DNA from: an uncultured bacterium
Lineage (GTDB): Bacteria > Fermentibacterota > Fermentibacteria > Fermentibacterales > JCC-6
Assembly: GCA_964541235.1 (NCBI GenBank)
Contig: CAZIPI010000001.1
Coordinates: 110,774-174,773 of the forward strand
DNA length: 64,000 nucleotides
Direction of reading: 5' to 3'
A model generated the notes under the pieces. It worked only from the letters and a program-made list of their open reading frames with translations, had not been told where the DNA came from and searched no databases. How positions within the stretch are numbered: the stretch's first letter is position 1; each line of letters begins with the position of its first letter. Positions 2,572 through 32,492 of the stretch are shown one piece after another. A program made the position numbers and the translations under genes.

Positions 2572-3167
2572 CGAGCCTCCCCCTTAAGGGCTGAAGTGAT
2601 CCTGACCAGTTCCGCTGCAACCCTTTGAACGGCCCTTGCGTTCCTTGCGTCGGCAAACCCTCCGCTTCCGTCAAAGGCCTGGCCGGCCGAACCCACGGCA
2701 TGCTGTGATGGGATGACCAGCACACCGAGGTTCGCAAGCAGTGACCTGAGGACGGAAAGGCTTCTGAGCCCGCCCAGACTGCCCGGGGAGGCCGAGACCA
2801 GCGCGGCGGTCTTTCCGCGGAAGGCGCTCAGGGGTTTCTCGTCAGGGGTACGGGACCGTGACGCCCAGTCCAGCGCGTTCTTCAGCAGCGGAGTGATTGA
2901 ACCGTTGTACTCGGGAGAGGCTATGAGAAGACCGTCATGCCGGGAAAGCAGCTCCTTGAACGAGAGAGCGTTCCGGGGTATCCCTTCCGAAGACTCGAGG
3001 TCTTCGTTCATGAGGGGCATGGGGTGGTCGCCCAGTTCGATGATGGTCACCTCTCCGCCGGCCTCCTCCACGGAAGCGGCTGCAAGCCCCAGGAGAGCCC
3101 TGTTGTACGAGCCCTTCCTCGAACTGCCGGCGAAAGCCAGTATCGAAGGCCTGCCTCCGTCCCCCAT
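2568..3167 (-). CDS. NAD(P)H-dependent FMN reductase family protein
   Basis: Motifs LAFAGSSRKGSYN and IASPEYNGSITPLLKNALDW match the NADPH-dependent FMN reductase / flavodoxin-like fold family. Confidence 0.75.
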   Translation of the reverse strand: MGDGGRPSILAFAGSSRKGSYNRALLGLAAASVEEAGGEVTIIELGDHPMPLMNEDLESSEGIPRNALSFKELLSRHDGLLIASPEYNGSITPLLKNALDWASRSRTPDEKPLSAFRGKTAALVSASPGSLGGLRSLSVLRSLLANLGVLVIPSQHAVGSAGQAFDGSGGFADARNARAVQRVAAELVRITSALKGEAR

Positions 3168-6389: not shown

Positions 6390-6470
6390 CAGGGCGCACC
6401 GCTCTGCTGGCACAGCTCCCGGACCTTCAGCTATAATCCGGCAACTTTCAGCAGAAGGGCTTTCGGGGCA

Positions 6471-9354: not shown

Positions 9355-11397
9355 TCACCGGTCATCGGGCTCCCCGCCGTGCCAGATGCCTCCACCGATT
9401 ATTGACTGGGCGATGTTGGTGAAGTGGTCCGCTGCCCTTTCACAGTACTCTATGTAGTCCAGAATGGCAAGACCGGTCATGTTGGCCAGGTGCGAAGCCA
9501 GTGCCTCGCCGTACTTCTCCCGGGCCTCTTCGCTTATCTTGTTCATGCGCCCCTCGAGTATCAGCAGGCGCTGGGCAGCTCCGATATCGTTATGCTTGAT
9601 GGTCTTGACCGCCTCCCTGGCCATCTCGGTCAGAGCGCTGGATGCCGACACCGCAAGGGCGGGCAGCGGCCCCTCCTCGGACGTGACGTCGCCGGACACC
9701 CTGGACCTGGCCTCCATGATGTTCACCGCGTGGTCCGAGATGCGCTCAAGGTCGTTGATGGAGTGGATTATCACGGGAAGGCTCAGTGACTGCTCCCGGG
9801 ATAGCTCACCCTGGAACAGCTTCGAGGCGTAATCGGTCATGTCCCTCTGCATCACGTCAACCCTGTCCTCCATCCGGACTATCTCGTCCGCGTCGTGGCG
9901 CCCGGTGAGGAAGTGCTCGGAAGCCATCAGCAGGCACTCCCCGGAGTACTCGGCCATCCTCCCCATCTCGCGGTTCAGGGTGTCTATGGCCAGCACCGGG
10001 CTTTCGAGAAGGTTGAAGTCGAGGACCATCCCGGGTTCCAAACCGGCCGCCACCCGTTCATCCGGCACCAGCAGCCTGCAGAGCCTGGTGAGAAGAGGGA
10101 CCAGGGGAATGAACACGATGCAGTTGGCGATGTTGAAGATGGTGTGGGCGTTGGCCACCTGGCGCATGGTGTCGGCGGATGTCAGCCGGACAAGTTCGAG
10201 GAACAGGCCGTCCTTCCTGAGAGCGAACAGCATGAAATAGGCGGCGCCCAGCAGGTTGAAAAGTGTGTGGGCCATGGCCGCCTGCCTGGCCGCCCTGTTG
10301 CTTCCCAGGGCCGCAAGCTGGGCTGTGATGGTGGTTCCGATGTTGTCGCCGAGAACCAGGAACACTGCTCCCTGCAGGTTCACAAGGCCGATCCCCGCCA
10401 GGGTCATGGTGAGGCCCACGGTGGCGCTCGAACTCTGCACCAGGACGGTGATGAGGGTCCCGGCGAACACCGCCAGAAGGGGGTGCGTGCTGAAATCGGC
10501 GAAGAAGTTCCTCACGGGGGCACTGGCGCGAAGGGGCTTCATGACGTCGCTCATCACGGACATGCCCATGACAAGAAGGCCGAGACCCATCAACGCCCTG
10601 CCCCACAGTTTCAGGTTTCGTCCCCGCCCCAGGAAAGAAAGGGCGAAGCCCGCGGCGATTATGGGGAACGCGTAGTCACTGATCTTGAAGGCGATGAGCT
10701 GGCCGGTGATGGTGGTGCCTATGTTGGCCCCCAGGATCACTCCCACCGCCTGCTGCAGCGTCATCAGCGAGCTGTTCACGAAACCCACGGTGATCACCGT
10801 CGTGGCGCTGGAACTCTGGATGGCAGCGGTGACCAGGGCCCCTGTGGCAATGCCCATTATCCTGTTGGAAGTAATGCGCTTGAGTATCCCCTTCAGCCTG
10901 TTCCCGGCAACCTGCTGAAGGTTGGATGACATGAACTGCATTCCCAGGAGAAAGATGGCCAGACCGCCCAGCACCTGAAAGATGATGAAGAAAAGGTTGA
11001 TGGAGACAAGGGTGATGGATGCCCTGCAGAGTTCGCCCTCGGAATCGCCTGCGACGGCGGTCACCAGTATCTCGCCCATATCCTCGCCGAACTCAAGGTT
11101 CATCATGGCCATCCCGCACGAGTCGGTATAGACCACGTACCCCGACAGCCCCTCCTGCATCACCGTCATGTAGCCGGGATGGGGGTGAAGGAGGGCGTCG
11201 CCGCTCTGGACCACGAAGTTCACCGGAACGCCCAGGGCCGGGGTGCAGTCGCCGGTGTGCAGCACCTGAACCGACAACGGTTCGGAGAGCATCCGGCCGG
11301 TGTTCCCGTAGGTCTTTCCGGACATGGAACTCACCTGCAGCTCGGCGGCATAGGCCAGCGGGAACAACAGAAGCGACAACAGCAGGAAGACGCGCAA
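9355..11397 (-). CDS. Na+/phosphate cotransporter (NptA/type II family) with C-terminal PhoU-like domain and an unusual ~120-aa N-terminal secreted domain
   Basis: Repeated GANIGTTITAQL / GDNIGTTITAQL motifs are characteristic of NptA. The C-terminal helical region is PhoU-like. The N-terminus has a signal peptide (MRVFLLLSLLLFPLAYA) before the transporter core. Confidence 0.8.
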   Translation of the reverse strand: MRVFLLLSLLLFPLAYAAELQVSSMSGKTYGNTGRMLSEPLSVQVLHTGDCTPALGVPVNFVVQSGDALLHPHPGYMTVMQEGLSGYVVYTDSCGMAMMNLEFGEDMGEILVTAVAGDSEGELCRASITLVSINLFFIIFQVLGGLAIFLLGMQFMSSNLQQVAGNRLKGILKRITSNRIMGIATGALVTAAIQSSSATTVITVGFVNSSLMTLQQAVGVILGANIGTTITGQLIAFKISDYAFPIIAAGFALSFLGRGRNLKLWGRALMGLGLLVMGMSVMSDVMKPLRASAPVRNFFADFSTHPLLAVFAGTLITVLVQSSSATVGLTMTLAGIGLVNLQGAVFLVLGDNIGTTITAQLAALGSNRAARQAAMAHTLFNLLGAAYFMLFALRKDGLFLELVRLTSADTMRQVANAHTIFNIANCIVFIPLVPLLTRLCRLLVPDERVAAGLEPGMVLDFNLLESPVLAIDTLNREMGRMAEYSGECLLMASEHFLTGRHDADEIVRMEDRVDVMQRDMTDYASKLFQGELSREQSLSLPVIIHSINDLERISDHAVNIMEARSRVSGDVTSEEGPLPALAVSASSALTEMAREAVKTIKHNDIGAAQRLLILEGRMNKISEEAREKYGEALASHLANMTGLAILDYIEYCERAADHFTNIAQSIIGGGIWHGGEPDDR

Positions 11398-11617
11398 TGC
11401 AGTTCTCCGTTGAGGGAACCTTGAGGACCACCACCCCTGATCGGGAACGAAAGGGGAATATGGGCATTTGGGGCGGGAATGAAAACCTTGCGGGGAGGGT
11501 TGCGCCTCAGGCCGCCGATGCTATGTTCACGGGTCCGCACCCCCCGGATGGATGCTGGGCGGTTCGGTAAGTCTGTATTCATGACACTGGTATTATCATA
11601 TAAAAATGGAGGATAAC

Positions 11618-13810
11618 ATGCTTACCCCCTGGTTCTGGTTCGCTCCCGCCGGCTCGGTTCTCGCGCTGGTGGTGGCCTTCCTTTTCTACAGGAGCATGAT
11701 GGCCGAGAGCGAGGGCACGCCCAGAATGGCCTCCATCGCCCTGGCTGTTCGAAAAGGCGCCATGGCCTATCTGAAGCAGCAGTACAGGGTGGTTGCCGTT
11801 GTCTTCCTCTGCCTCACCCTGTTCTTCGCCTTCATGGCCTATGTTCTGAAAGTGCAGAACGGCTGGGTGCCGTTCGCCTTCGTCACTGGCGGGTTCTTCT
11901 CGGGCCTGGCGGGGTTCTTCGGGATGAAGACCGCCACATACGCTTCTTCGAGAACCGCAAACGCCGCCATGCAGTCGCTGAACCGGGGTTTGACCCTGGC
12001 ATTCAGGAGCGGCGCGGTGATGGGGCTGGTGGTGGTGGGGCTGGCCCTTCTGGACATCTCGATATGGTTCATCATACTGAACAGGTTCTACCCTGCTTCC
12101 CAGGGGCCCGCGTCTCTGATAGTCATCACCACCACAATGCTCACCTTCGGCATGGGGGCCTCCACACAGGCGCTCTTCGCCAGGGTGGGCGGCGGCATCT
12201 TCACAAAGGCGGCTGACGTTGGAGCCGACCTGGTGGGCAAGGTCGAGGCAGGCATCCCCGAGGACGACCCCAGGAACCCGGCCACCATAGCCGACAACGT
12301 GGGCGACAACGTTGGGGATGTTGCAGGGATGGGGGCCGACCTTTACGAGTCGTACTGCGGAGCCATCCTTGCCACCGCGGCGCTGGGCGCCACAGCATAT
12401 GCCGCCTCGGGGGCGGCGGTGCAGATGAACAGCGTGGTGGCCCCCATGCTGATCGCCGGGATCGGAACCATTCTGTCCATAGCCGGGATCATGATAGTCA
12501 GGACCAGGGAGGGGGCGACGCAGAGACAGCTTCTCGATTCACTTGGAAGGGGAGTGAACTTCAGCTCGATACTCATTCTGCTTGCTTCCGCCCTTGTTCT
12601 GAACCTTCTTGGAATACCCAACGCCTGGGGTATCTGGGGTTCCCTTTTCACGGGCCTGGTGGTTGGGATAGTCATCGGCAGGTCAACGGAGTACTTCACA
12701 TCACACGGTTACAGGCCCACCAGGGCCATAGCCGCCCAGGCTGCAACAGGCCCGGCTACCGTCGTGATCTCAGGCATCGGTACCGGTCTGATCTCCACTG
12801 CAATACCTGTGTTCATGGTTTCGCTGGGCACCATCCTTGCCTTCTTCTTCGCTTCCGGCTTCGATTTCCAGAACCTGCCCATGGGGCTCTACGGGATCGG
12901 GATCGCCGCGGTGGGAATGCTTTCCACGCTCGGGATCACACTGGCCACCGACGCCTACGGTCCGATAGCGGACAATGCCGGCGGCAACGCCCAGATGGCT
13001 GGCCTGGGGTACGAGGTAAGGGAGAGGACCGATGCCCTGGATGCTCTTGGCAACACAACCGCAGCCACTGGAAAGGGCTTCGCGATTGGCTCGGCGGCGC
13101 TAACGGCCCTGGCCCTGCTTGCGGCCTACCTCGAGGAGATAAGGATAGGCCTTCTCAGGGTCGGGGTGGAGTTCTTCCAGTTGGGCGGCGCCACCGTTGA
13201 GGTTGCCTCGGCCTCCCTTCGGGAGCTGATGGCTTTCTACAATGTCCACCTGATGTGCCCCACTTTCCTGGGTGGAACGTTCATCGGCTCCATGATGGCC
13301 TTCCTGTTCTGCGGCCTCACCATGAACGCCGTGGGGCGGGCCGCGGGACGCATGGTCGAGGAGGTCAGGAATCAGTTCCGGGAGAAGCCGGGCATAATCC
13401 AGGGCACCGATGAGCCCGACTACGCCAGGTGCGTTGCCATATCCACCCGAGGGGCCCAGCGGGAGATGATACTTCCCGCAGGGCTGGCGATAGTGGTCCC
13501 CATCGTCACCGGGGTGGTCCTGGGTGTGGGCGGGGTCATGGGTCTGCTTCTCGGGGGGCTGGCGTCGGGCTTCGTACTGGCTGTTTTCATGGCCAACGCC
13601 GGCGGTTCATGGGATAACGCCAAGAAGTTCGTCGAAGAGGGGAACATGGGCGGCAAGGGTTCAGAGGCTCACAAGGCCACCGTCATCGGGGATATGGTGG
13701 GCGACCCCTTCAAGGACACCTCGGGGCCCAGCCTGAACATCCTCATCAAGCTCATGAGCATGGTTTCCATTGTGATGGCCGGCTTCACCGTCACGTTCCA
13801 TTTCCTGTGA
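11618..13810 (+). CDS. hppA: Membrane-bound K+-stimulated/H+ (or Na+)-translocating pyrophosphatase
   Basis: Signature GADLVGKVEAGIPEDDPRNPATIADNVGDNVGDVAGMGADLYESY and ~16 TM segments. The start was chosen at the second ATG (11618), which has a GGAGGA Shine-Dalgarno sequence 5 nt upstream; the ORF-track start is 11606. Confidence 0.9.
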   Translation: MLTPWFWFAPAGSVLALVVAFLFYRSMMAESEGTPRMASIALAVRKGAMAYLKQQYRVVAVVFLCLTLFFAFMAYVLKVQNGWVPFAFVTGGFFSGLAGFFGMKTATYASSRTANAAMQSLNRGLTLAFRSGAVMGLVVVGLALLDISIWFIILNRFYPASQGPASLIVITTTMLTFGMGASTQALFARVGGGIFTKAADVGADLVGKVEAGIPEDDPRNPATIADNVGDNVGDVAGMGADLYESYCGAILATAALGATAYAASGAAVQMNSVVAPMLIAGIGTILSIAGIMIVRTREGATQRQLLDSLGRGVNFSSILILLASALVLNLLGIPNAWGIWGSLFTGLVVGIVIGRSTEYFTSHGYRPTRAIAAQAATGPATVVISGIGTGLISTAIPVFMVSLGTILAFFFASGFDFQNLPMGLYGIGIAAVGMLSTLGITLATDAYGPIADNAGGNAQMAGLGYEVRERTDALDALGNTTAATGKGFAIGSAALTALALLAAYLEEIRIGLLRVGVEFFQLGGATVEVASASLRELMAFYNVHLMCPTFLGGTFIGSMMAFLFCGLTMNAVGRAAGRMVEEVRNQFREKPGIIQGTDEPDYARCVAISTRGAQREMILPAGLAIVVPIVTGVVLGVGGVMGLLLGGLASGFVLAVFMANAGGSWDNAKKFVEEGNMGGKGSEAHKATVIGDMVGDPFKDTSGPSLNILIKLMSMVSIVMAGFTVTFHFL

Positions 13811-13817
13811 CGGAGGG

Positions 13818-14648
13818 TCAGCCCAAGGCGCGGTCCCAGGGGGCGGGTATCTCCGCAGGGAACCGCCACAGGTCGGTGTGCCCCTGGTCCGCCACGTACA
13901 GACCGTCACCCGAGTGCCGCCCGTAACCGAGCCATGAGTGGAACGGAACCTCGTTGATGCAGTCACCCGATACGATGGTCTTCGTCTTCTTGCGGGGCTG
14001 GTCACGAAGCTCCTGGTCAGCATCGGTGAACCGGCTCAGTGCGGCCAGGTTGAAGAGCCCGGTCTGCAGTTCGGTGAAGATAACCTGGCGGAACACCTTT
14101 CCCGGCCTGTGGGTCGAATACCATGCGTACTCGACCGGGGTCAGGTTGGATACCAGGAGCAGTTGGATCGGGCACATCACCAGGTAGATGTGGCGCTCCC
14201 TCTGAGCGGTGTCGGGAACACCGGCGGCGGCCGCCACCTCTGACGGCGACATCTCCTCGTGACAGCTGCCCGGCCCGAAATGGTGCAGCGGCCCCCCCTT
14301 CTCCATCTCCAGCACCTCTCCGCCGGTCTTCACAAGGAACACACGCCTGTATGCGCTAATGGGAGTGCAGGAAAAGGCGTTGTTGGAAAGGGCGGTCTTT
14401 GTGCGCTTGCCCGCGGCGGAAGCCGCCAGGGCGCTCATGGAATCGCCCGAAGGGTCCCGCCATCCGCCCTCCTCAAGGTAGCTGAAGCCGGGCTTTGTGC
14501 CTTCGATGACAAGGTCCACAAATATCTTCCGGCCCTTGAAGTGCTTGCCGGAGCCCGGGCTTGTGTGCCGGGCAAGACCCTCGATCCCCAGGGATGTGGC
14601 TGTTATGACGCCCTGCGGGATCCAGAGGACAAGACCAGGATCAGCCAT
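13818..14648 (-). CDS. Hypothetical protein (276 aa)
   Basis: Long ORF convergent with hppA, with no motif recognised by eye. Confidence 0.4.
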   Translation of the reverse strand: MADPGLVLWIPQGVITATSLGIEGLARHTSPGSGKHFKGRKIFVDLVIEGTKPGFSYLEEGGWRDPSGDSMSALAASAAGKRTKTALSNNAFSCTPISAYRRVFLVKTGGEVLEMEKGGPLHHFGPGSCHEEMSPSEVAAAAGVPDTAQRERHIYLVMCPIQLLLVSNLTPVEYAWYSTHRPGKVFRQVIFTELQTGLFNLAALSRFTDADQELRDQPRKKTKTIVSGDCINEVPFHSWLGYGRHSGDGLYVADQGHTDLWRFPAEIPAPWDRALG

Positions 14649-14773
14649 TCCCCACGCTCCTTTGCTTGCGCCCGGCCAGGGGCATACAACGGCTCTTCGG
14701 TCTTCGACCCCGGAGACCCTTCAAAAAAAGAATAGCGAGAACGGCAGGAACAGTCAAGGAAACCGGGGGGTTG

Positions 14774-15853
14774 TCAGTACCTGAGGATCAGGGCCATCCT
14801 CTGGTAGTTGTCCAGGGCTCCGTCCGGAACGAAGACGACCTCTCCCTTGCCGGCTATGACCGCCTCGATGATCTCATCCACCGCGTCATCGATCACACCC
14901 GGTGATCCAGGAGAATCGGACGGCGTGACGCCCATCCCCGTTCCGTCAACCGTCGCCGGACAATGAAAACCCTCCTCCACAAGAAGGACCTTGCCCCTCC
15001 CCTCATGCGACGCAGCCCATATCCCGCCAAGTGTCGCCAGGACCCGGTCTGCTGCGGCTGCCCTGGAGAGTTCATCGATCCTGGACTGCCTGATCCCGGC
15101 GAGATGCTCCTCGACCCGGGGCCAGACCATTGCACCCAGGTCATGAACCGGCGTTCCGTCATGGCTGCCCTTCAACGCACCCCTGACAGGGACGGACGAT
15201 TGGTCGCGGAACATGGATACGAACTTGTCAACCCCCGTGACGAAGAGAGGAAGCGGTTCGGCGGCGGCATATCCGGCCAGGGAGGAGGCAACCGTCATGA
15301 AGAACTGCCTGTGTCGCTGGTCACGGAAGGCCGACCGGCTCACTCCCCTGCCTCCGGGGAGAGAAGTCGCCCCGCCGGGACCTGTATGCTCCATTGGAAA
15401 GCTGCCGTCCCTGACCTCACTCAGGGTGTCACGGAAGCCCTCGTACAACCGGGTCGGCTTCTCGCTCAGAACCAGAAGCCAGTACCTGGCGGAGCGGTTC
15501 AGTGCGAAGACCAGGTCCCTGGTCAGGAACGTCTCGTCAACGACCACCCTCTCCCTGAGGGTGAATGGAAGATGGAACACCCTGTACATGCTGCTGTTTG
15601 CGAACACAGCCATCCCGTCAAGGTTCACGTTGTGGTCCACCGAATCCGCAGCTTCGTTGAGGTTGCGCAGGACTCCGGCGATCTGGCGCTTCCCGAACTC
15701 CTTCATCAGCCTGTCCACGGCCTGACCGACAAGGTTCTTCAACCTCACCGGATCCTGCCTGTTCTCAGGGAATGTGCGGTTGGCGGGCATGGTGACCGTT
15801 ACTGCGGGGTATCCCCTCTCCTTCTGCAGCAGCTCCAAGTCCAGACGGTTCAT
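14774..15853 (-). CDS. Hypothetical protein (359 aa), translationally coupled to the upstream antiporter gene
   Basis: The ATG overlaps the antiporter stop (ATGA, 15850-15853), and an AGGAAGGGA Shine-Dalgarno sequence lies upstream. Soluble protein with no canonical motif. Confidence 0.5.
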   Translation of the reverse strand: MNRLDLELLQKERGYPAVTVTMPANRTFPENRQDPVRLKNLVGQAVDRLMKEFGKRQIAGVLRNLNEAADSVDHNVNLDGMAVFANSSMYRVFHLPFTLRERVVVDETFLTRDLVFALNRSARYWLLVLSEKPTRLYEGFRDTLSEVRDGSFPMEHTGPGGATSLPGGRGVSRSAFRDQRHRQFFMTVASSLAGYAAAEPLPLFVTGVDKFVSMFRDQSSVPVRGALKGSHDGTPVHDLGAMVWPRVEEHLAGIRQSRIDELSRAAAADRVLATLGGIWAASHEGRGKVLLVEEGFHCPATVDGTGMGVTPSDSPGSPGVIDDAVDEIIEAVIAGKGEVVFVPDGALDNYQRMALILRY

Positions 15854-18195
15854 GATTCTCCCTTCCTGTGGAAATACGAGGCTATCAGGGCAAGCCTTCG
15901 CAGGTGTTCCTCGGCGCTTTCGTCAGGGGTCCCGATGAGCAGGACGAGGGCTTTCGCCGAGTTTCCGCCGGCGATGCCGGCGAACCCTTCCGACCGTGTT
16001 GCCAGAAGCGCCATGGGCGCCGGTGGAAAACCCTTGTGGGTGTGGAGCAGCAGACACTCCGGCGAAAGCCACAGGGCCGCCTCGCTCTGCTGCGCCATGC
16101 AGTCCTCCAGAAGCGTGTCCCTGGCCGGTGAGGGCCTGGGATACACGGCCTCGATCATGGCCCGGACAGCACCTGATACCGAACTTTCGCCGATCTCGCT
16201 GAAAACCGATGAAGGCGTGAACACATGGTGCAGTTCTTCCGCGTCAGGGGCAGGACCCTCACCGGTCTCCCATTTCATCTCCGGAGGGTAGATCAAGAGG
16301 AACGGCCGGGAGCCCAGCAGCCTGTTAATGACACCGGACAGCCTGGCCTGCACGGGCTGCCAGGCCAGCCTTCCTGTCCTCGCCTGGAAGAGAACGGGCA
16401 GGTCGCCGTCGCGGAACACCTCATTCAGCAGCCCCGGCAGGCCATGCCAGTCCTCGAGGGCGTGATGCGCCGTCGCCGGGTCCGCAGTATCAAACATCCC
16501 TTTTTGCACCATGGCCTTCACCGTGCGGGAGGACGCCACTAGAACGATGCTGCTCCCGGACTGGACGGCGAGCCTCTGAATGACCTCCCATGCGGCGGCG
16601 AAGCCCGGCTGATTCTCCATCAGAGGCGGAACCGCAGCGATAATGCGTTTGCACGTGTTCACGGGGGCAGGATTCCTGAACCGCAGCACCAGGAACCTTC
16701 CGTTCTCCACCAGAAGGCCCGGGACGTCCTCGTACCCGCTCTCCAGCGAGAACTCCTCATCAATTATCACCGTGGAGACCCTGAAATCCAGCGATGCTCC
16801 CATGATCCCCTCCACCACACCGGGGGCGACACGGGTCACTGGCTGGACCGGGGTGTCGGCATCCACGGCCAGTATCACCGCCTCCGCCAGTATCTTCTCG
16901 GCGCTCGCCACAGCCTGTTCGCTGTCGCCCGCCTCCGAGGTGATCATCAGCGGGTAGATCGGCTGGCCGAACCTTCTGCGGCGAAGCATGATGGCCAGCG
17001 ACATCAGCGGCTCTATCTGGTGTGCCGCGCTTATGGGGACCATTATCCGCTCCGGGGCGCCGGAGCTGTCGAGGTGGGTCGAGGCAAGCGATAAGGCAAG
17101 CCTTCTCCCGAACCTCTCGGTGATCCAGGGACCCATCACGCATGTGGCCAGGATCATCAGAATGGTCCCGTTGAGCACCTCTTCGGAGAACACCCCCAGC
17201 CTGACCCCGACTATCACCGCGGCCAGTGTGGCAGCCGCCTGGTTCACACTGAGTCCGAACAGCAGGCCGGTCTCGTCGCGCGAGAAACGGAGCGCCCTTC
17301 CGCCCAGGAAGGCGGCGGCGAACTTGGTCGAAAAGGCGGCGGCAACCATGTAGAGCATCACAATCCATGCGCCGGCCGAACCCGCCAGCGCCCGCACATT
17401 GACCATCATCCCCACCGAGAGAAGGAAGAACGGGATGAAAAGGGATTCGCCCACGAAGCGGAGCCTTATCATCAGCCTGCTCTGGTCGGGTATGAGCATG
17501 TTCAGGGTCAACCCGGCAAGGAATGCCCCGATGATGGGTTCAAGGCCCGCAAGCGGGGCCAGCGCCGAGCATGCGTAGGCGCATGCCAGGACGAAGAGGA
17601 ACCCGGGAACGCTCTCGGCGGGAACCCTTCTGAAGAACCAGCGTCCCATGCGGGGAACGCTCCAGACCACCACGCCCACGTAAACCGCCAGCAGTGTGAC
17701 CAGGCGGATCCAGAACAGGGGGGTGAGGTCACCCTGGACCGACTCGGCGACCACGGCCAGAACAAGCAGGGCCAGGGAGTCCGTGAGGACCGTTCCTCCC
17801 ACGGCGGTGGTCACCACCCTCTCCTTCACAAGGCCGAGACGCTGAACTATGGGGTAGGTCAGGAGCGTGTGGGAGGCGAACATGCTGGCCATGAGAATGG
17901 CCGCCGGCCATGACAGCCCCAGAACCAGCAGCGCCCCCCACATGCCCAGCAGCTGGGGTATGAGAAAAGTGATGCCGCCGAAGACAACGCTGTTGCCGCG
18001 TTCCCTTCCGAAGCGGTGCATGTCCACTTCCAGCCCTGCGATGAACATCAGGTACAGCAGCCCCACGGCCCCCAGGGGCTGGACCATGCTGTCCGCCTGG
18101 AGCAGGCGGAGCGCGTGGGGGCCTAGTGCGGCTCCAGCCAGGATAAGCCCCACGAGCCCGGGAAGCTTGAGCCGCTGGAACACTATCGGGACCAC
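15850..18195 (-). CDS. Cation:proton antiporter (CPA/Na+-H+ exchanger family) fused to a C-terminal PTS EIIA type-2 (EIIA-Ntr-like) domain; start codon uncertain
   Basis: The N-terminal ~400 aa has about 12 TM segments with the exchanger-like LILAGAALGP motif. The C-terminal ~150 aa (LLHTHKGFPP...ALVLLIGTPDESAEEHLRRLALIASYF) resembles PTS_EIIA_2. The track start is a GTG. The upstream in-frame extension (to the stop at 18283) encodes a complete TM1 (AFTFGIAIAAVLVVPIVFQRL), so the true start is probably upstream and non-ATG. Confidence 0.7.
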   Translation of the reverse strand: MVPIVFQRLKLPGLVGLILAGAALGPHALRLLQADSMVQPLGAVGLLYLMFIAGLEVDMHRFGRERGNSVVFGGITFLIPQLLGMWGALLVLGLSWPAAILMASMFASHTLLTYPIVQRLGLVKERVVTTAVGGTVLTDSLALLVLAVVAESVQGDLTPLFWIRLVTLLAVYVGVVVWSVPRMGRWFFRRVPAESVPGFLFVLACAYACSALAPLAGLEPIIGAFLAGLTLNMLIPDQSRLMIRLRFVGESLFIPFFLLSVGMMVNVRALAGSAGAWIVMLYMVAAAFSTKFAAAFLGGRALRFSRDETGLLFGLSVNQAAATLAAVIVGVRLGVFSEEVLNGTILMILATCVMGPWITERFGRRLALSLASTHLDSSGAPERIMVPISAAHQIEPLMSLAIMLRRRRFGQPIYPLMITSEAGDSEQAVASAEKILAEAVILAVDADTPVQPVTRVAPGVVEGIMGASLDFRVSTVIIDEEFSLESGYEDVPGLLVENGRFLVLRFRNPAPVNTCKRIIAAVPPLMENQPGFAAAWEVIQRLAVQSGSSIVLVASSRTVKAMVQKGMFDTADPATAHHALEDWHGLPGLLNEVFRDGDLPVLFQARTGRLAWQPVQARLSGVINRLLGSRPFLLIYPPEMKWETGEGPAPDAEELHHVFTPSSVFSEIGESSVSGAVRAMIEAVYPRPSPARDTLLEDCMAQQSEAALWLSPECLLLHTHKGFPPAPMALLATRSEGFAGIAGGNSAKALVLLIGTPDESAEEHLRRLALIASYFHRKGES

Positions 18196-18328
18196 AAGGA
18201 CAGCAGCGATGGCAATGCCGAAGGTGAATGCAGGATCTGACGGATCAAGACCGTGAAGAACGCTGGCCAGAGAACTCTCCCTTCAGGCTTCCCCTGTGAA
18301 ATATTCGGCGGTACGGGGCGCATGGAAA

Positions 18329-18353
18329 GGGGCGCCCCCGGGTAGGGCGCCCC
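18329..18353 (-). terminator. Putative intrinsic terminator after rpsG
   Basis: Perfect 9-bp GC stem GGGGCGCCC/GGGCGCCCC with a 7-nt loop, followed on the minus-strand transcript by UUUCC. Confidence 0.5.
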
Positions 18354-18370
18354 GTCATGCCTTTAGGGGG

Positions 18371-18838
18371 CTACCAGCGGTAGTGGGCGAAAGCCTTGTT
18401 GGCTTCCGCCATCTTGTGGGTGTCTTCCCTTTTCTTGACGCTGTTGCCCTCGCCCTGGGAGGCCTCGATGAACTCCTGGGCCAGCCGCTGGGCCATGCTG
18501 CGTCCCTTCCGGCCCCTGGAGTAGCTGATGATCCACCGCATGGCCAGTGCGTCCCGCTCGCTCTGCTTGACTTCCACGGGGACCTGGTAGGTGGACCCTC
18601 CGACACGTCTGGATTTCACCTTCAGTGTTGGACGGACGTTGTTCATGGCCTTGTTGAACACTGCCACCGGATCCTGGCCGGTCTTCTCTGCGATCATGTC
18701 GAAGGCATCGTAAACCACGCCCTCGGCCACCGACCGCTTGCCCTGGTGCATGATGTTGTTGATGAACTTGGCTATCACCAGGTTGCCGTACTTCCTGTCC
18801 GGGAGTATCTCGCGCCTTTTCGGTCTGTTCCTTCTCAT
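18371..18838 (-). CDS. rpsG: 30S ribosomal protein S7
   Basis: MRRNRPKRREILPDRKYGN...HYRW, full-length S7. Confidence 0.95.
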   Translation of the reverse strand: MRRNRPKRREILPDRKYGNLVIAKFINNIMHQGKRSVAEGVVYDAFDMIAEKTGQDPVAVFNKAMNNVRPTLKVKSRRVGGSTYQVPVEVKQSERDALAMRWIISYSRGRKGRSMAQRLAQEFIEASQGEGNSVKKREDTHKMAEANKAFAHYRW

Positions 18839-18843: not shown

Positions 18844-19215
18844 CTACGCTTCCTTCTTCGTCCCGTACTTGGACCGGCTCTGCTTGCGCCCGCTTACGCC
18901 GCTGGCATCCTCCACACCCCGGATGATGTGGTAACGCACGCCCGGCAGGTCCTTCACCCTGCCCCCGCGCACGAGGACCACCGAGTGCTCGTTGAGGTTG
19001 TGCCCCTCTCCGGGAATGTAGGCAGTGACTTCATATCCGTTCCGAAGCCTGACCCTGGCCACTTTTCTGAGCGCTGAGTTGGGCTTTTTGGGCGTGGATG
19101 TATACACACGGGTGCAGATGCCCTTCTTCTGAGGGCAGGAGGTGAGGGCAGGGGCCTTCGTCTTGGCGACCTGCTTGCTTCTTCCCATCCGCACCAGTTG
19201 ATTGATGGTGGGCAA
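18844..19215 (-). CDS. rpsL: 30S ribosomal protein S12
   Basis: [12 protein letters not shown]...[11 protein letters not shown], canonical S12. Confidence 0.95.
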
Positions 19216-19271: not shown

Positions 19272-22200
19272 TTACGCATCGAAATGAATAATGTCAAGCG
19301 TATCTTCTTCCCTCTCAAGCCGGACCGGCTCGGGCAGGTCCGCGCCGTCGGGAAGGAAGAGCCTTACGTTCTTGTACATGGGCAGCCCGGTCCCAGCCGG
19401 GATCAGGTGACCCACGATGACATTCTCCTTCAGGCCGATCAGGGGATCAACCTTCGCCTGCACCGCGGCATCCGCCAGAACCGTGTTGGTCTCCTGGAAC
19501 GAGGCGGCCGAGAGGAAGCTGTCGGTGGCAAGCGAGGCCTTGGTGATCCCCAGCAGGAGAACGTCGCTGGTGGCCGGCCTCTTGCCCTGGCGCATCACAT
19601 CCATGTTGTGCCTGTTCAGCTCGAGCCGGTCAACCTGGGAACCCTCGAGGAAACGGGTGTCGCCCGGGTCCTCGATCTTGGCCTTGGAGAGCATCTGGCG
19701 AACCACGATCCCCACGTGCTTGTCGTTGATCTTCACTCCCTGAAGCCTGTAGACCTCCTGTATCTCGTTGAGAAGGTAGTCTTCCACTGCTTCGGTTCCC
19801 CTGACCCTGAGAATGTCGTGGGGGTCAAGGGGGCCTTCGGTGAGCTTGTCGCCGGCTTCAACATGGTCGCCTTCACGGACCCTGATGTGCTTCGAGGCGG
19901 CGATCTTCACCGAGGATTCCTGCCCCTGATCGCCGCGGATGGTGATGGTGCGCATGGCCGCCTTGATGGAGCTCAGGCTTATCACTCCGCTGATCTCGGC
20001 GATGGCCGCAGCGTCCAGCGGGCATCTGGCCTCCACCAGCTCCTCCACCCTTGGCAGACCTCCGGTGATGTCCCTCTGCTGGCCCAGCCTTCTCTCTATC
20101 CTGGCAAGGTGAACGCCCATCTTTATCAGGGCGCCGTCCTCCACACGAAGGTGGGCTCCGCTGGGAATGGGGTACACACCGAGAACGTTGTCCTTGATGA
20201 ACTCCTCCACCGGGTCCTGGTCCTGGGTGCGCTGCCTGCCACGGGCCACTGTATGGCTTCGAAGACCCCTGCGGGAGAAGCTGGCTATGAACAGCATCCT
20301 TCCGCCCTGAATGGAGTCGCAGAGCATGGAGACCAGCTTCCTGGTACCGGTATGGCCCCGGTTGAGGTCGGCTATGGAGAGGATGAAGGGAACCTGCCTG
20401 CTGAAGGCCAGCAGAGATTCCACGAACTCCTGCTCCACATCCTCGTTGTTCCTTGAAGCCGATTCCCCGAGCTTGTCAGCGGCTGCCCTGAGCTTCTTCC
20501 AGTGTTCGCCGCCGCTCTTCCTGCCCAGGGCCTCCATCGAGTTCACCGCGTCCATGAACGCGGCGTAGCTTCCGGTGTGAACTCTGCGGCAGTCAACTCC
20601 CACGTGGGGGACGGTGAGCTTGCCGTCCAGCGTGAAGTCCTCAAGGAGCGAGGTGTTCCTCACCGAACTCAGGTCTCTGTATGTGAACACCAGGCGGCCT
20701 GCGGAGGAATCGGCCTCACGCAGAAGGTCGTGCATGGTGCGCAGCTCCCTGTCGCGCCTCTGGGGTCTTCCGCTGAGAACAACGATGTGCTCGGGAAGGA
20801 CGAATAGGTGAGGATGGAGCGTGCGGCTCCTGTCCTCCACAATCACCATCTGCCTCCGCTGCTCGCTGTCGATCTCCTCACGGAGGGTTATCTCCTCCTC
20901 GATGTCAACGTAGTGAACCGAGCCGTTGTGCTCGCTCACGATGGGGATGATGAACGGGTCGCTCCTGCAGATAAGGTCGTCCCTCTCAACCTGCTGGTCT
21001 TCCAGCACGCTGAGAATGGAGCCGGGTACGATGTCGTACGTGGAGACCGAGTCTCCCCTGTCGTCCAGAATGACAACCTGCCCGTTCCTGGTGGCGATCC
21101 TGTTCACCCTGCCGGATTCGTCAACGCCTTCGACGATGTGGATGTTGCGGAAGCTCACTGTTCCGGCCCTTCTGGACCTGACTTCCGTCTCCTTGGCCTC
21201 ACGGCCTGCCACACCGCCGGTGTGGAAGGTTCTCAGGGTGAGCTGCGTGCCCGGTTCCCCGATGGATTGGGCGGCTATCACACCGACCGCCTCGCCCCTG
21301 GTCACCTTCCGGTTGCGGCTGAGGTCCCATCCGTAGCACTTTGCGCATAGGCCGTGATCGGCCTCGCAGGTCAGGACACTTCGGATCCTGACGGTCTCGA
21401 TCCCCTTTTCCTCGATACGGGATGCGTGATCAGGGGTTATCTCGTTCCCGGCCTCGAGTATGATCTCATCGCCTACCGGGTCGAAGACATCCTCTGCGGT
21501 AACCCTTCCCACGATCCTGTCGCGGAGCGGTTCCAGCACTTCCTCGCCCTCCTTGAGGGCGCTGATGTTCCTTCCCCTGATGGTGCCGCAGTCATCCATG
21601 GTTATCACCACGTCCTGGCACACGTCCACCAGCCGCCTGGTGAGATAGCCGGCGTCGGCTGTCTTCAGGGCGGTATCCGCGAGGCCCTTTCTGGAACCGT
21701 GGGTGCTGATGGAGTACTCGATGACGGAAAGACCCTCTTTGAGCGAGCTGATGATGGGTGTCTCGATGGTCTCGCCCAGCTCTCCGGAAAGCTTCTTCTT
21801 GGGCTTCGACATGAGACCCCTCATGCCGGCCAGCTGCCTGACCTGGTCCACGCTTCCGCGTGCCCCGGAATGGGCCATCATGAAGATGGGGTTGAAACCC
21901 GAGTTGTCCCTCTCAAGGACATCCATCATGGATTTCTTCACATCGTCGGTGGCCTTGCTCCAGATGTCTATGATGCGGTTGTAGCGTTCGGCCTCGGTGA
22001 GTTCGCCCTTCCCGGTCCGGTCCTCCACCTCCGCCACGAGCCTCCGGCTCTCCTGCACTATCTCGGGCTTCACGCCGGGTATGATCATGTCCTTCATGCC
22101 TACGGTGAGACCGCTTACGGTGCTGTAATGGAAGCCGGTATCCTTCAGGTTGTCGAGGAAAACGGCGCATGCAACCGATCCCTCGTGCTGGTGGCAGCGG

Positions 22201-24044
22201 GAGACCATGGCCGAAAGGCCCTTCTTGCCGAACACCTTCTCGTGGGGGATCTGGCCGTTGGCCATGATGTAGCCCATGCCTTCGGGGATTATCCTGTTGA
22301 AGACCACCTGCCCCGGAGTGGTGTAGTCCTTCCAGAGGGTGGGCTTCCGTATTCCCCCGTCATTGCCCTTTTCGTCTATCCTGTTGATGCCGCGTATCTT
22401 TATCTTCGCGTGCAGGTCAACCTTGCCCGCATCCAGGGCTCCGATGACCTCTTCGCGGCTGCAGAAGATCATCCCCTCGCCCTTGACCCCGGGCATGGGC
22501 TTCGTGAGGTAGTACACGCCGATGACCATGTCGTGGCTCGGGGTGACCACCGGTTCGCCGCTGGCGGGCTTCAGGATGTTCCTGCTGCCCAGCATCAGCA
22601 TCCTGGCCTCCACCTGGGCCTCGGCGGACAGTGGAACGTGAACGGCCATCTGGTCGCCGTCGAAGTCCGCGTTGAAGGCGGCGCAGGCCAGAGGGTGCAG
22701 CCTTATGGCAAGGCCTTCCACCAGCACCGGCTCGAAGGCCTGTATTCCAAGCCTGTGGAGCGTGGGCGCCCTGTTGATGAGAACCGGATGGTTCCTGATG
22801 ACCTTCTCGAGTATCGCCCAGACTTCTTCGGGGCGCTCCTCGACCTTCTTCTGGGCCATCTTCACACCGCAGCCGTACTTCTTCTCCCACCTGGCAACCA
22901 CGAAGGGCTTGAAGAGCTCCAGCGCCATGGTCTTCGGAAGACCGCACTGATGAAGCCTCAGCTCAGGGCCCACCACGATCACGCTTCTGCCGGAGTAGTC
23001 CACCCTCTTGCCCAGAAGGTTCTGCCTGAACCTTCCCCTCTTACCCTTCAGAAGGTCCGAAAGGCTTCTGAGGGGGCGCATCCCGGCGCCCTTTACGGGC
23101 TTGCGCCGGCTGGAGTTGTCGAGGACGGCGTCAACGGCTTCCTGGAGCATCCTCTTCTCGTTCCTGAGGATCACATCGGGGGCCTGGAGGTCGAGAAGCC
23201 TCTTGAGACGGTTGTTCCTGTTGATGACCCTTCTGTAAAGGTCGTTCAGGTCACTGGAGGCGAATCGTCCTCCGTCCAGGGGAACCAGGGGGCGAAGCCC
23301 CGGGGGGAGCACCGGGAGTATCCTGAGGATCATCCACTCCGGCTTGTTCTCGGCCCTGGAGTTGGTGAAGGCGACCACCTCTTTCAGCCGCTTCACGTTC
23401 TTCTGCCTTCTGGACAGGGTGGTCTCGTTGGCGATGGAGGTCCTGAGCATCGCCGCAAGTTCCTCAAGGTCTATAACGGAAAGGAGCGTGGCGATGGCCT
23501 CGGCTCCCATGCCGACCTTGAAGGTGTCCTTCCCGTAAGTCTCCCTGGCGGCGTAGTACTCTTCGTCACCGAGGACGGTGCCGGGCCTGAGCTGGGGGTG
23601 ATCGCTCTCTACGACGATGTAGGATTCGTAGTAGAGGACCCTTTCCAGGTCAATGTTGGTTATGTCGAGAAGCTTGGATATCTGGCGGTTCTTGTAGTAC
23701 CAGATGTGGCACACCGGCACCGCAAGGTCGATGTGGCCCATGCGGCTGCGGCGCACCTTGGACATGGTTACCTCCACACCGCAGCGGTCGCACTTCACAC
23801 CCCGGTACCTGATCCTCTTGTAGCGTCCGCAGGCGCACTCCCAGTCCTTCTCGGGACCGAAGATGCGCTCGCAGAAGAGACCGTCAGGCTCAGGCTTGTA
23901 GCTCCTGTAGTTGATCGTTTCGGCTTTCGTTACCTCGCCGTGGGACCAGTTCCGTATGGTGTCCGGAGAGGCGAGGCTGATGCGTATTCCCTGGAAATCC
24001 GCGGGAAAAGCATTCACATCTCTGGGAGAGGGATTGCTGTGCAT
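19272..24044 (-). CDS. rpoC: DNA-directed RNA polymerase subunit beta' (about 1590 aa)
   Basis: Zn-binding CxxC motifs (CACGRYK, CDRCGVEV) and NADFDGD at the active site. The start was set at the ATG at 24042-24044 (MHSNPSPRD...), 1 nt after the rpoB stop; the ORF-track start at 24077 would overlap rpoB. Confidence 0.95.
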   Translation of the reverse strand: MHSNPSPRDVNAFPADFQGIRISLASPDTIRNWSHGEVTKAETINYRSYKPEPDGLFCERIFGPEKDWECACGRYKRIRYRGVKCDRCGVEVTMSKVRRSRMGHIDLAVPVCHIWYYKNRQISKLLDITNIDLERVLYYESYIVVESDHPQLRPGTVLGDEEYYAARETYGKDTFKVGMGAEAIATLLSVIDLEELAAMLRTSIANETTLSRRQKNVKRLKEVVAFTNSRAENKPEWMILRILPVLPPGLRPLVPLDGGRFASSDLNDLYRRVINRNNRLKRLLDLQAPDVILRNEKRMLQEAVDAVLDNSSRRKPVKGAGMRPLRSLSDLLKGKRGRFRQNLLGKRVDYSGRSVIVVGPELRLHQCGLPKTMALELFKPFVVARWEKKYGCGVKMAQKKVEERPEEVWAILEKVIRNHPVLINRAPTLHRLGIQAFEPVLVEGLAIRLHPLACAAFNADFDGDQMAVHVPLSAEAQVEARMLMLGSRNILKPASGEPVVTPSHDMVIGVYYLTKPMPGVKGEGMIFCSREEVIGALDAGKVDLHAKIKIRGINRIDEKGNDGGIRKPTLWKDYTTPGQVVFNRIIPEGMGYIMANGQIPHEKVFGKKGLSAMVSRCHQHEGSVACAVFLDNLKDTGFHYSTVSGLTVGMKDMIIPGVKPEIVQESRRLVAEVEDRTGKGELTEAERYNRIIDIWSKATDDVKKSMMDVLERDNSGFNPIFMMAHSGARGSVDQVRQLAGMRGLMSKPKKKLSGELGETIETPIISSLKEGLSVIEYSISTHGSRKGLADTALKTADAGYLTRRLVDVCQDVVITMDDCGTIRGRNISALKEGEEVLEPLRDRIVGRVTAEDVFDPVGDEIILEAGNEITPDHASRIEEKGIETVRIRSVLTCEADHGLCAKCYGWDLSRNRKVTRGEAVGVIAAQSIGEPGTQLTLRTFHTGGVAGREAKETEVRSRRAGTVSFRNIHIVEGVDESGRVNRIATRNGQVVILDDRGDSVSTYDIVPGSILSVLEDQQVERDDLICRSDPFIIPIVSEHNGSVHYVDIEEEITLREEIDSEQRRQMVIVEDRSRTLHPHLFVLPEHIVVLSGRPQRRDRELRTMHDLLREADSSAGRLVFTYRDLSSVRNTSLLEDFTLDGKLTVPHVGVDCRRVHTGSYAAFMDAVNSMEALGRKSGGEHWKKLRAAADKLGESASRNNEDVEQEFVESLLAFSRQVPFILSIADLNRGHTGTRKLVSMLCDSIQGGRMLFIASFSRRGLRSHTVARGRQRTQDQDPVEEFIKDNVLGVYPIPSGAHLRVEDGALIKMGVHLARIERRLGQQRDITGGLPRVEELVEARCPLDAAAIAEISGVISLSSIKAAMRTITIRGDQGQESSVKIAASKHIRVREGDHVEAGDKLTEGPLDPHDILRVRGTEAVEDYLLNEIQEVYRLQGVKINDKHVGIVVRQMLSKAKIEDPGDTRFLEGSQVDRLELNRHNMDVMRQGKRPATSDVLLLGITKASLATDSFLSAASFQETNTVLADAAVQAKVDPLIGLKENVIVGHLIPAGTGLPMYKNVRLFLPDGADLPEPVRLEREEDTLDIIHFDA

Positions 24045-24045
24045 T

Positions 24046-31295: not shown

Positions 31296-32492
<1,197 letters not shown>

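What the first reader, a model, noticed from the sequence alone, without database searches (positions are those of the whole stretch)
13818..18353. Antiporter-EIIA fusion plus two unknown proteins occupy the slot where fusA normally follows rpsG
Directly after the rpsG terminator comes a 781-aa cation:proton antiporter whose C-terminal ~150 aa resembles a PTS EIIA type-2 (EIIA-Ntr-like) regulatory domain. Its stop overlaps (ATGA) the start of a 359-aa soluble protein of unknown function. A 276-aa unknown lies 125 nt further downstream. A transporter carrying a phosphorylatable EIIA domain, translationally coupled to an unknown partner, is a candidate regulated ion-transport module. The 359-aa partner could be a regulatory or sensor component. 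Its predicted alpha/beta content and size are reminiscent of eRF1/Pelota-like (baeRF-type) folds, but that is speculative and rests on no motif. The antiporter start is also unclear, because the full first TM helix is encoded upstream of the first GTG with no ATG in frame.
Basis: partly seen in the sequence, partly recalled or inferred. Interest (0 to 1): 0.5.

Follow-up and report, generated by a model that had tools for sequence, protein, structure and literature searches.

The report
Regulated antiporter beside Balon hibernation factor
After rpsG this uncultured Fermentibacteraceae-like bacterium encodes a cation/proton antiporter with stress-sensing tail domains, then a homologue of the ribosome hibernation factor Balon; both belong to known families, and the third gene is an unrelated conserved unknown.

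Summary
The three ORFs, the ATGA overlap, the 125-nt gap and the missing canonical start are all real.

- **Truncation.** A roughly 130-nt deletion removed the last ~25 residues of the EIIA domain and the spacer. That deletion created the ATGA overlap, so the coupling is derived.
- **Start codon.** The start is most likely a CTG at 18270, behind a GGGAG ribosome-binding site. It is conserved in three lineages and aligns with Met1 of homologues.
- **359-aa protein.** It is a Balon homologue (NCBIfam NF052287 above cutoff; PDB 8RD8 E=1.9e-37).
- **Gene pair.** The pair occurs in only three close lineages.
- **276-aa ORF.** It is a real, conserved family with no Pfam or PDB relative, often adjacent to H+-pyrophosphatase genes, and not part of the pair.

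Verdict: new members of known kinds, moderate to low interest.

The parts
18326..18353 (-). Terminator-like hairpin after rpsG (GGGGCGCCC-uaccc-GGGGGCGCCCC then UUU).
   Evidence: Sequence. It is the only structure kept in the RNA centroid fold. The equivalent hairpin in L012/L069 has a T7 tail.
18277..18285 (-). In-frame TGA (18283-18285) overlapping a conserved ribosome-binding site, GAAGGGAG (GGGAG = 18277-18281).
   Evidence: The DNA alignment of window, L012 and L007 shows CTGAA(G/A)GGAG conserved in all three. Coordinates were checked.
15850..18270 (-). Antiporter gene, proposed full length of 806 aa from a CTG start at 18268-18270. The mechanical ORF call starts at GTG 18195 and gives 781 aa.
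   Evidence: There is no canonical start between the TGA and TM1. In L007, L012 and L069 the first canonical start is about 70 codons inside the conserved coding region. The CTG is conserved 6-9 nt after the Shine-Dalgarno sequence in all three lineages. It falls in the same alignment column as Met1 of P0125, P0127, P0128, P0133 and P0147.
17125..18270 (-). CPA2-type Na+/H+ exchanger membrane domain.
   Evidence: Pfam PF00999 E=1.8e-51. NCBIfam TIGR00932 (CPA2) gives E=1.3e-29 but 103.6 bits, below its cutoff of 238.3.
16276..17058 (-). Cytoplasmic tandem USP-like module (approximate limits).
15853..16221 (-). EIIA type-2 (EIIA-Ntr-like) domain, truncated at its C-terminus. The predicted phospho-acceptor is His743 (codon 16042-16044) and the second conserved His is His789 (15904-15906), in 806-aa numbering.
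15850..15853 (-). ATGA overlap of the antiporter stop and the Balon start, created by a roughly 130-nt deletion.
   Evidence: L012, L069 and L007 carry about 25 more antiporter codons plus a spacer of about 70-75 nt here. The breakpoints lie in GAAAGG-like repeats.
14774..15853 (-). Balon-family ribosome hibernation factor homologue (baeRF family 3), 359 aa.
   Evidence: NCBIfam NF052287 375.5 bits against a cutoff of 330, covering residues 7-359. Pfam PF18845 E=3.7e-36. phmmer to PDB 8rd8_B, the P. urativorans Balon, gives E=1.9e-37 over the full length. There is no GGQ or NIKS motif in the sequence.
13818..14648 (-). 276-aa conserved protein of unknown function. It is probably a separate transcription unit and not part of the antiporter-Balon pair.
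11606..13810 (+). H+-translocating pyrophosphatase, convergent with the 276-aa gene (7 nt between the stop codons).
   Evidence: ORF. Pfam H_PPase is recorded for the identical gene on contig L001. The recurrent adjacency of the two families elsewhere is shown.

Best explanation
Downstream of the rpsL-rpsG terminator lies a two-gene stress unit.

**Gene 1** is a CPA2 cation/proton (probably K+ or Na+/H+) antiporter. Its cytoplasmic tail is a tandem USP-like module followed by an EIIA-Ntr-like domain. The gene most likely starts at a weak CTG codon (18270) behind a good Shine-Dalgarno sequence. In this lineage a roughly 130-nt deletion has removed the last helix of the EIIA domain.

**Gene 2** is a Balon homologue. 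By homology it should bind the A site of the ribosome together with EF-Tu and hold ribosomes in a hibernating state during stress.

Shown here: the family assignments, the domain architecture, the truncation, the conserved CTG, and conservation of the pair in three related lineages, one of which has a different upstream neighbour.

Inferred: the two genes are co-transcribed and, in this window, translationally coupled. They would then be made together when growth stops. The tail would set antiporter activity in response to nucleotide or phosphorylation state, by analogy with free EIIA-Ntr controlling K+ transporters. Balon would act independently on ribosomes. The two products are probably linked by shared expression, not by physical interaction.

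The 276-aa gene is a separate, conserved gene of unknown function whose family tends to sit next to pyrophosphatase genes.
For: - **Antiporter:** PF00999 E=1.8e-51.
- **Balon:** NF052287 above its equivalog cutoff, PF18845, and a full-length match to 8rd8_B at E=1.9e-37. The function of the family is taken from PMC10901736.
- **Pair conservation:** L012, L069 and L007 all have antiporter followed by Balon. L007 has different upstream genes.
- **Deletion and overlap:**
- **CTG start:**
- **Precedent for EIIA-Ntr controlling a K+/H+ antiporter in trans:** PtsN and YcgO, PMC11808508 and PMC7349511.
- **Precedent for Balon genes lying in stress operons:** PMC10901736.
- **276-aa gene is separate:**
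Against: - The window's own tail gives no Pfam EIIA or Usp hit.
- The AF2 model of the tail is mediocre (mean pLDDT 59, from 5 sequences), so the fold evidence rests on the better-modelled parts.
- The EIIA domain is truncated and may not fold or be phosphorylated.
- I could not check whether the genome has EI/NPr-type phosphodonors.
- The antiporter-Balon adjacency is confined to three closely related lineages. 60 other Balon loci and two more distant antiporter homologues lack it, so it could be inherited synteny without shared function.
- Co-transcription was not shown, and promoter scans do not cover this phylum's promoter type.
- The window's Balon has Asn where relatives have a nearly invariant His (PTHR becomes PANR). 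The effect on ribosome binding is unknown.
- Ion specificity was not determined.
- CTG initiation is inferred, not measured.
Confidence: 0.62

Rival explanations
1. The pairing is mechanistic. The antiporter and Balon form one growth-arrest module in which K+ efflux or cytoplasmic acidification by the activated antiporter is the physiological trigger or cofactor for Balon-mediated hibernation. Balon might even dock on the USP/EIIA tail.
For: - The pair is kept in a different genomic context in L007.
- Coupling has tightened to an ATGA overlap in the window.
- In E. coli, YcgO-mediated K+ efflux under PtsN control has been proposed to cause growth cessation (PMC7349511; PMC11808508).
- Tandem USP proteins also neighbour Balon in two unrelated loci, L054 and L023.
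Against: - Neither the Balon paper nor the baeRF paper mentions an antiporter link.
- 60 of the 62 nearest Balon loci lack any such antiporter.
- Antiporter homologues P0002 and P0004 lack Balon.
- Hundreds of clusters share the tail, whereas I found the antiporter-Balon pairing in only three closely related lineages.
- There is no evidence for any contact between the two proteins.
Confidence: 0.18
2. The adjacency is historical accident. Two unrelated genes landed after the rpsG terminator in a recent ancestor and have not yet been separated, and the truncated EIIA domain marks a transporter that is decaying.
For: - The pair has a narrow phylogenetic spread.
- The deletion removed part of a conserved domain that all 19 aligned homologues keep.
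- Distant homologue P0002 has an internal deletion in its membrane domain.
Against: - The window allele is intact over 806 codons with normal codon bias.
- It is identical across many samples and conserved within its 90% cluster.
- The pair sits after different upstream genes in L007.
- Both conserved His residues and the membrane domain are preserved.
Confidence: 0.17
3. All three genes (antiporter, 359-aa, 276-aa) form one regulated ion-transport module, with the two downstream proteins as transporter accessories.
For: Same strand and short spacers.
Against: - The 359-aa protein is a Balon-family ribosome factor.
- The 276-aa gene is missing beside the pair in L007, L012 and L069.
- None of 84 loci of the 276-aa family has the antiporter or Balon nearby.
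- A promoter-like site precedes the 276-aa gene.
Confidence: 0.03

Closest known systems
Balon (AOC03_06830 of Psychrobacter urativorans; PDB 8RD8/8RDV/8RDW; Pfam baeRF_family3; NCBIfam NF052287)
   Same: Full-length homology across all three aeRF1-like domains at E=1.9e-37. Scores above the NCBIfam equivalog cutoff. No GGQ or NIKS motif. The C-terminal domain aligns without large gaps. It lies beside stress-related genes, as reported for the family.
   Different: The nearly invariant His of the N-domain PTHR...P motif is Asn here. The position that is His-Pro in P. urativorans is Phe-Pro. The neighbour is an antiporter, not RaiA, Hsp20, OsmC or the other neighbours listed in the paper. Ribosome binding was not tested.
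CPA2 antiporters with a USP-USP-EIIA cytoplasmic tail (uncharacterised family, at least 278 clusters at 50% identity)
   Same: Same membrane domain, same ~400-residue tail aligned end to end, and the same conserved His residues.
   Different: The window copy lacks the last ~25-40 residues that every other aligned member has. It uses a CTG rather than an ATG start, and its own sequence falls below Pfam detection for Usp and EIIA_2.
EIIA-Ntr (PtsN) regulation of K+ transport: YcgO/CvrA (shown in papers read here); TrkA and KdpD (from my own knowledge)
   Same: An EIIA-Ntr-type domain is paired with a monovalent cation/proton antiporter. In E. coli, unphosphorylated PtsN binds the cytoplasmic region of YcgO and inhibits K+/H+ antiport (PMC11808508).
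   Different: Here the EIIA domain is covalently fused to the transporter (cis rather than trans). The transporter is CPA2 rather than CPA1. The tail has USP domains instead of RCK/CorC. Phosphorylation and regulation were not tested.
KefB/KefC glutathione-gated K+ efflux systems (CPA2)
   Same: Same membrane-domain superfamily, with weak NCBIfam hits to KefB and KefC.
   Different: Scores are far below the equivalog cutoffs (25-28 bits against 750-800). The tail is USP+EIIA rather than a KTN/RCK domain.

Membership tests
Balon / AOC03_06830-family ribosome hibernation factor (baeRF family 3) | Sequence scores above the curated family cutoffs over the full length. | tested here: met
   NF052287 375.5 bits against a cutoff of 330, residues 7-359 of 359. 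PF18845 125.4 bits against 31.5.
Balon / AOC03_06830-family ribosome hibernation factor (baeRF family 3) | Three-domain aeRF1-like organisation homologous to the solved Balon structure. | tested here: met
   phmmer alignment of residues 6-359 to residues 5-369 of 8rd8_B, E=1.9e-37. No structure was predicted here for this protein.
Balon / AOC03_06830-family ribosome hibernation factor (baeRF family 3) | Absence of the aeRF1 GGQ and NIKS motifs. | tested here: met
   Neither string occurs in the 359-aa translation. The catalytic-loop region aligns with the GGQ-less relatives.
Balon / AOC03_06830-family ribosome hibernation factor (baeRF family 3) | [quoted passage not shown] | tested here: inconclusive
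   The paper text read here does not give residue numbers. In the aligned segment, relatives have PTHRTxPxNxQDP and the window has PANRTFPENRQDP. The Pro and QDP are kept, but the conserved His is Asn.
Balon / AOC03_06830-family ribosome hibernation factor (baeRF family 3) | Binds the ribosomal A site with EF-Tu under stress. | not testable with these tools
   This needs ribosome pelleting or cryo-EM. tuf is present in the window at 31296-32507.
PTS EIIA type 2 (PF00359) domain | Sequence match to PF00359 at the gathering threshold. | tested here: not met
   The window tail gives no hit even at E<=10. Close relative P0001 scores 25.4 bits against a cutoff of 27. Relatives P0125 (28.6), P0128 (27.5), P0133 (35.4) and P0136 (43.6) pass.
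PTS EIIA type 2 (PF00359) domain | EIIA-2 fold. | tested here: met
   [not shown]
PTS EIIA type 2 (PF00359) domain | Conserved phospho-acceptor His. | tested here: met
   His743 (806-aa numbering) is conserved in at least 90% of 20 family members. The equivalent His of P0136 aligns with the IPH His of PtsN 3urr. The second His (His789, EHL) is invariant. The mapping is transitive and rests on weak E-values.
PTS EIIA type 2 (PF00359) domain | Phosphorylated by an HPr/NPr-type donor. | not testable with these tools
   No EI or HPr gene was seen among the window ORFs scanned. The rest of the genome could not be searched.
CPA2 monovalent cation:proton antiporter | Na_H_Exchanger membrane domain with CPA2-type profile similarity. 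| tested here: met
   PF00999 175.6 bits. TIGR00932 gives E=1.3e-29 but 103.6 bits against a cutoff of 238, so the superfamily is certain and the subfamily assignment is approximate.
Universal stress protein (PF00582) tandem module | USP alpha/beta fold in tandem. | tested here: inconclusive
   [not shown]

The most novel reading that the evidence does not exclude
In this Fermentibacteraceae-like lineage, a stress-gated K+(Na+)/H+ antiporter and Balon act as one growth-arrest device. A signal read by the USP/EIIA tail (nucleotide or phosphorylation state) would open cation/proton exchange, and the co-translated Balon would then lock ribosomes. [quoted passage not shown] A secondary candidate is the 276-aa family, whose confident model has no PDB neighbour and which is often adjacent to H+-pyrophosphatase genes. 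It may be an undescribed component of pyrophosphate energy metabolism.
Probability: 0.15. Interest if true: 0.6.

Novelty: new member of a known kind. Interest (0 to 1): 0.33.

Why it matters
Balon was described only in 2024, and what controls its production is still open. A lineage in which its gene is welded to a signal-gated cation/proton antiporter gives a concrete hypothesis to test: ion or pH stress and ribosome hibernation are co-regulated.

The antiporter family itself carries a fused copy of the EIIA-Ntr regulator, which in E. coli acts in trans on K+ transporters, and the papers I searched do not describe it. It could show how that regulation works.

The practical yield for annotation is:
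- a corrected CTG start;
- a named function for a 'hypothetical' 359-aa gene;
- a warning that the 276-aa gene should not be grouped with the other two.

None of this overturns current understanding.

Tried and rejected
- **Pfam and NCBIfam on the window's antiporter tail.** Nothing, even at E<=10.
- **phmmer of the tail against PDB.** Noise only.
- **Profile of four EIIA-like domains against PDB.** The top hits were designed repeat proteins, which I take as artefacts. EIIA-Ntr 2a0j came third at E=0.0025.
- **Word-indexed homologue search.** It found only 2, then 4, relatives of the tail. The exhaustive HMMER search was needed to see the family.
- **Rfam.** No leader, riboswitch or small RNA at gathering threshold across the window or at E<=1 across 13700-18500. 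The single mir-1759 hit at E=0.9 is chance.
- **5' leader fold.** No more stable than shuffles (z=-0.26), so there is no evidence for a structured leader beyond the terminator hairpin.
- **Frameshift or sequencing error as the cause of the missing start.** Rejected. The same lack of a canonical start, with the same in-frame TGA and CTG, is seen in three diverged lineages and in many independent assemblies.
- **An out-of-frame TTG at 18246-18248.** It runs into a stop after about 21 codons (read).
- **A spurious 276-aa ORF.** Rejected by codon composition and 544 homologues.
- **A common neighbour of Balon across 62 loci.** None found.
- **Fermentibacteria genome paper.** No information on PTS, pyrophosphatase or antiporters.
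- **AlphaFold-database fold library.** Not available, so the 276-aa fold was compared with PDB only.
Full report
**Observation**

The minus strand carries rpoC (19272-24077), rpsL (18844-19215), rpsG (18371-18838), a 781-aa ORF (15850-18195, GTG start), a 359-aa ORF (14774-15853) and a 276-aa ORF (13818-14648). An H+-pyrophosphatase gene converges on the plus strand at 11606-13810.

- The antiporter stop and the 359-aa start overlap as ATGA, and the next gap is 125 nt.
- A 10-bp G+C hairpin with a short U tail follows rpsG at 18326-18353.
- All three ORFs have the codon-position G+C signature of real genes in this window.
- The same arrangement is found base-for-base on contigs from many independent sequencing runs.

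**The 359-aa protein is a Balon homologue**

- It matches Pfam baeRF_family3 at E=3.7e-36.
- It matches NCBIfam NF052287, 'AOC03_06830 family ribosome hibernation factor', at 375.5 bits. That is above the equivalog cutoff of 330 and covers residues 7-359.
- phmmer against all PDB chains returns a single hit, 8rd8_B, at E=1.9e-37 over the full length. 8RD8 is one of the Psychrobacter urativorans ribosome-Balon structures; the chain is deposited under a mis-annotated name.

Balon is a GGQ-less, NIKS-less aeRF1 relative. It occupies the A site of vacant or translating ribosomes together with EF-Tu during cold shock and stationary phase (PMC10901736). The window protein has neither GGQ nor NIKS.

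There is one departure. In 58 aligned relatives, the N-domain segment that contacts the decoding centre reads PTHRTxPxNxQDP. The window has PANRTFPENRQDP, so the nearly invariant His is Asn. This is also true in the four other members of its 90% cluster. I could not tell from the paper text whether this His belongs to the 'HP motif'.

**The antiporter and its tail**

Residues 2-357 of the 781-aa ORF match Na_H_Exchanger at E=1.8e-51, with weaker CPA2/Kef similarity. The remaining ~410 residues give no Pfam hit, even at E<=10 when scanned alone.

1. *Close relatives score near the threshold.* P0001 (58% identical) scores 25.4 bits on PF00359 against a cutoff of 27. Its C-terminal domain finds EIIA-Ntr 2a0j at E=0.0025.
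2. *The architecture is widespread.* An exhaustive HMMER search of 1.84 billion cluster representatives found 496 clusters at E<=1e-3 and 278 at E<=1e-10. Most of the 150 listed are 800-860 aa, with the match spanning the whole query at positions ~400-800. Of ten scanned with Pfam, seven have Usp hits and seven have PTS_EIIA_2 hits. Four pass the cutoff, the best being P0136 at 43.6 bits.

The architecture is thus a CPA2 membrane domain, a tandem USP-like module and an EIIA-2 domain.

In a 20-member alignment, the His of the LLLH motif (His743 in 806-aa numbering, codon 16042-16044) is at least 90% conserved. The His of EEHL (His789) is invariant. The equivalent FYH of P0136 aligns with the IPH active-site motif of PtsN 3urr.

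**Truncation and the origin of the ATGA overlap**

All 19 aligned homologues continue for 25-40 residues after the window's ...FHRKG. That stretch is the last helix of the EIIA fold; the sequence in the closest relatives is ...FHEKGILEGIIxAERYEDVLSHDS.

In the three closest loci (L012, L069, L007) those codons are followed by a spacer of about 70-75 nt and then the Balon ATG. The window lacks about 130 nt, and the breakpoints fall in GAAAGG-like repeats. One repeat lies in the HEKG codons and the other in the Balon ribosome-binding site. A deletion between them predicts H-x-K-G-x-x-stop with an ATGA overlap, which is what is seen (HRKGES*).

The translational coupling is therefore a derived, lineage-specific state. 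It came at the cost of part of the regulatory domain. The allele is otherwise intact and is the only form in its 90% cluster, where all members are 781 aa as called.

**Start codon**

Upstream of GTG 18195 the frame stays open back to a TGA at 18283-18285. It encodes LASVLHGLDPSDPAFTFGIAIAAVL, which is the first transmembrane helix.

- In L007, L012 and L069 the first canonical start lies about 70 codons inside the conserved coding region, yet tblastn similarity runs to the same upstream point.
- The three lineages share CTGAA(G/A)GGAG, which holds both the in-frame TGA and a Shine-Dalgarno sequence. Four or five codons later they share an in-frame CTG, at window 18268-18270.
- Homologues with ordinary ATG starts (P0125, P0127, P0128, P0133, P0147) have Met1 in exactly that alignment column.

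I therefore place the start at CTG 18270, giving 806 aa. From general knowledge, CTG is a weak initiator in bacteria. That would suit a potentially harmful efflux system, but this is inference.

**Is the pair a unit?**

A scan of one genome per GTDB species with the Balon sequence returned 62 loci. Only the two closest have the antiporter immediately upstream. These are L012 (an uncultured bacterium, 65% identity) and L007 (a Candidatus Fermentibacteraceae MAG, 64%). A further metagenome contig, L069, is near-identical to L012 and shows rpoC-rpsL-rpsG-antiporter-Balon.

L007 has different upstream genes, so the pair is found in two different genomic contexts. More distant antiporter homologues have no Balon neighbour; these are P0002 (49% identity) and P0004 (33%, no EIIA part). 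The other 60 Balon loci share no common neighbour, though tandem USP proteins appear twice. Neither the Balon paper nor the baeRF paper mentions antiporter neighbours.

The association is real but narrow. It fits the published pattern that Balon genes sit among lineage-specific stress genes.

**Mechanism**

The best-supported reading is a co-expressed stress pair. The antiporter adjusts cytoplasmic cations and pH, and its activity is set by its USP/EIIA tail. Balon parks the ribosomes.

The closest precedent for the tail is E. coli PtsN (EIIA-Ntr). In its unphosphorylated form it binds the cytoplasmic region of the K+/H+ antiporter YcgO and inhibits it (PMC11808508). Release of that inhibition has been proposed to cause growth cessation (PMC7349511). 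Here the EIIA module is fused in cis.

These steps were not tested:
- whether the truncated domain still works;
- whether a phosphodonor exists in this organism;
- which ion is carried;
- whether Balon and the antiporter interact.

**The 276-aa gene**

It is genuine. There are 544 homologues; the 120 listed are 55-75% identical, nearly all 274-281 aa, and come from Fermentibacteria, Krumholzibacteria, Sabulitectum and other MAGs. All are annotated as hypothetical.

- It has no Pfam, NCBIfam or PDB sequence match, even with a 57-member profile.
- It is absent next to the antiporter-Balon pair in L007, L012 and L069.
- None of 84 loci of its own family has Balon or the antiporter nearby.
- At least 17 of those loci place it within about 500 nt of an H+-PPase gene, mostly on the same strand. 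One genome (three records) places it about 0.5 kb from a soluble pyrophosphatase gene, with a YbjN-like gene between them.
- Other recurrent neighbours are a PilZ protein, a PMT_2 glycosyltransferase and a GNAT acetyltransferase.
- In the window it converges on the H+-PPase gene with 7 nt between the stop codons, and a promoter-like site precedes it.

It should be treated separately from the pair.

**Context and verdict**

The window holds the usual tRNA-tuf-secE-nusG-rplKAJL-rpoBC-rpsLG block; only tuf, at 31296-32507, was confirmed by Pfam, and the others are read from ORF order and size. An EF-G-like gene starts at 389 on the same strand and runs off the window. So fusA has been separated from rpsG by about 18 kb of transporter and other genes rather than lost.

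The proposed three-gene 'regulated ion-transport module' does not hold. The components are new members of known families. The modest novelties are:
- the lineage-specific antiporter-Balon pairing;
- the conserved CTG start;
- the deletion that fused the two reading frames;
- in passing, the structurally orphan 276-aa family.

Noticed in passing
[not shown]
   Followed up: partly
window 18268-18285 (-); L012 5935-5955; L007 ~2820-2850; L069 4936-4956: A conserved non-canonical CTG start follows a GGGAG Shine-Dalgarno sequence and an in-frame TGA. In L007, L012 and L069 the gene callers lost about 70 N-terminal codons because no ATG, GTG or TTG is available.
   Followed up: yes
window 1-389 (-): An EF-G-like gene ([32 protein letters not shown]...) starts at 389 and runs off the left end, about 18 kb downstream of rpsG on the same strand. 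I could not tell whether it is the housekeeping fusA or a paralogue.
   Followed up: partly
window 14774-15853 (-), residue 23: The window's Balon and all four other members of its 90% cluster have Asn in place of the nearly invariant His of the N-domain PTHR motif. The nearest relatives L012 and L007 keep SHR.
   Followed up: partly
window 19272-24077 (-): rpoC encodes about 1600 aa, which I judge long for a bacterial beta-prime. The relative L012 has the same length (1603 aa), which suggests a lineage-specific insertion. I did not analyse it.
   Followed up: no
window 9355-11397 (-): A 680-aa Na+/Pi cotransporter with C-terminal PhoU domains sits next to the H+-PPase gene. Together with an MFS transporter at 6390-7700 (+), this makes the region after rpsG rich in ion and phosphate-handling membrane proteins.
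   Followed up: partly
L070 (P0002) 1062-3086; L012 ~7480-7580: The 49%-identical antiporter homologue P0002 lacks about 150 residues of the membrane domain, which could be a pseudogene or a misassembly. L012 has a run of N inside the tail region, so its apparent internal deletion is an assembly gap.
   Followed up: no
L007 1630-2751: The ORF upstream of the antiporter in L007 reads like a DNA-ligase N-terminus joined to a P-type ATPase C-terminus. This may be a chimeric join in that MAG, so the 'different context' argument for L007 carries some risk.
   Followed up: no
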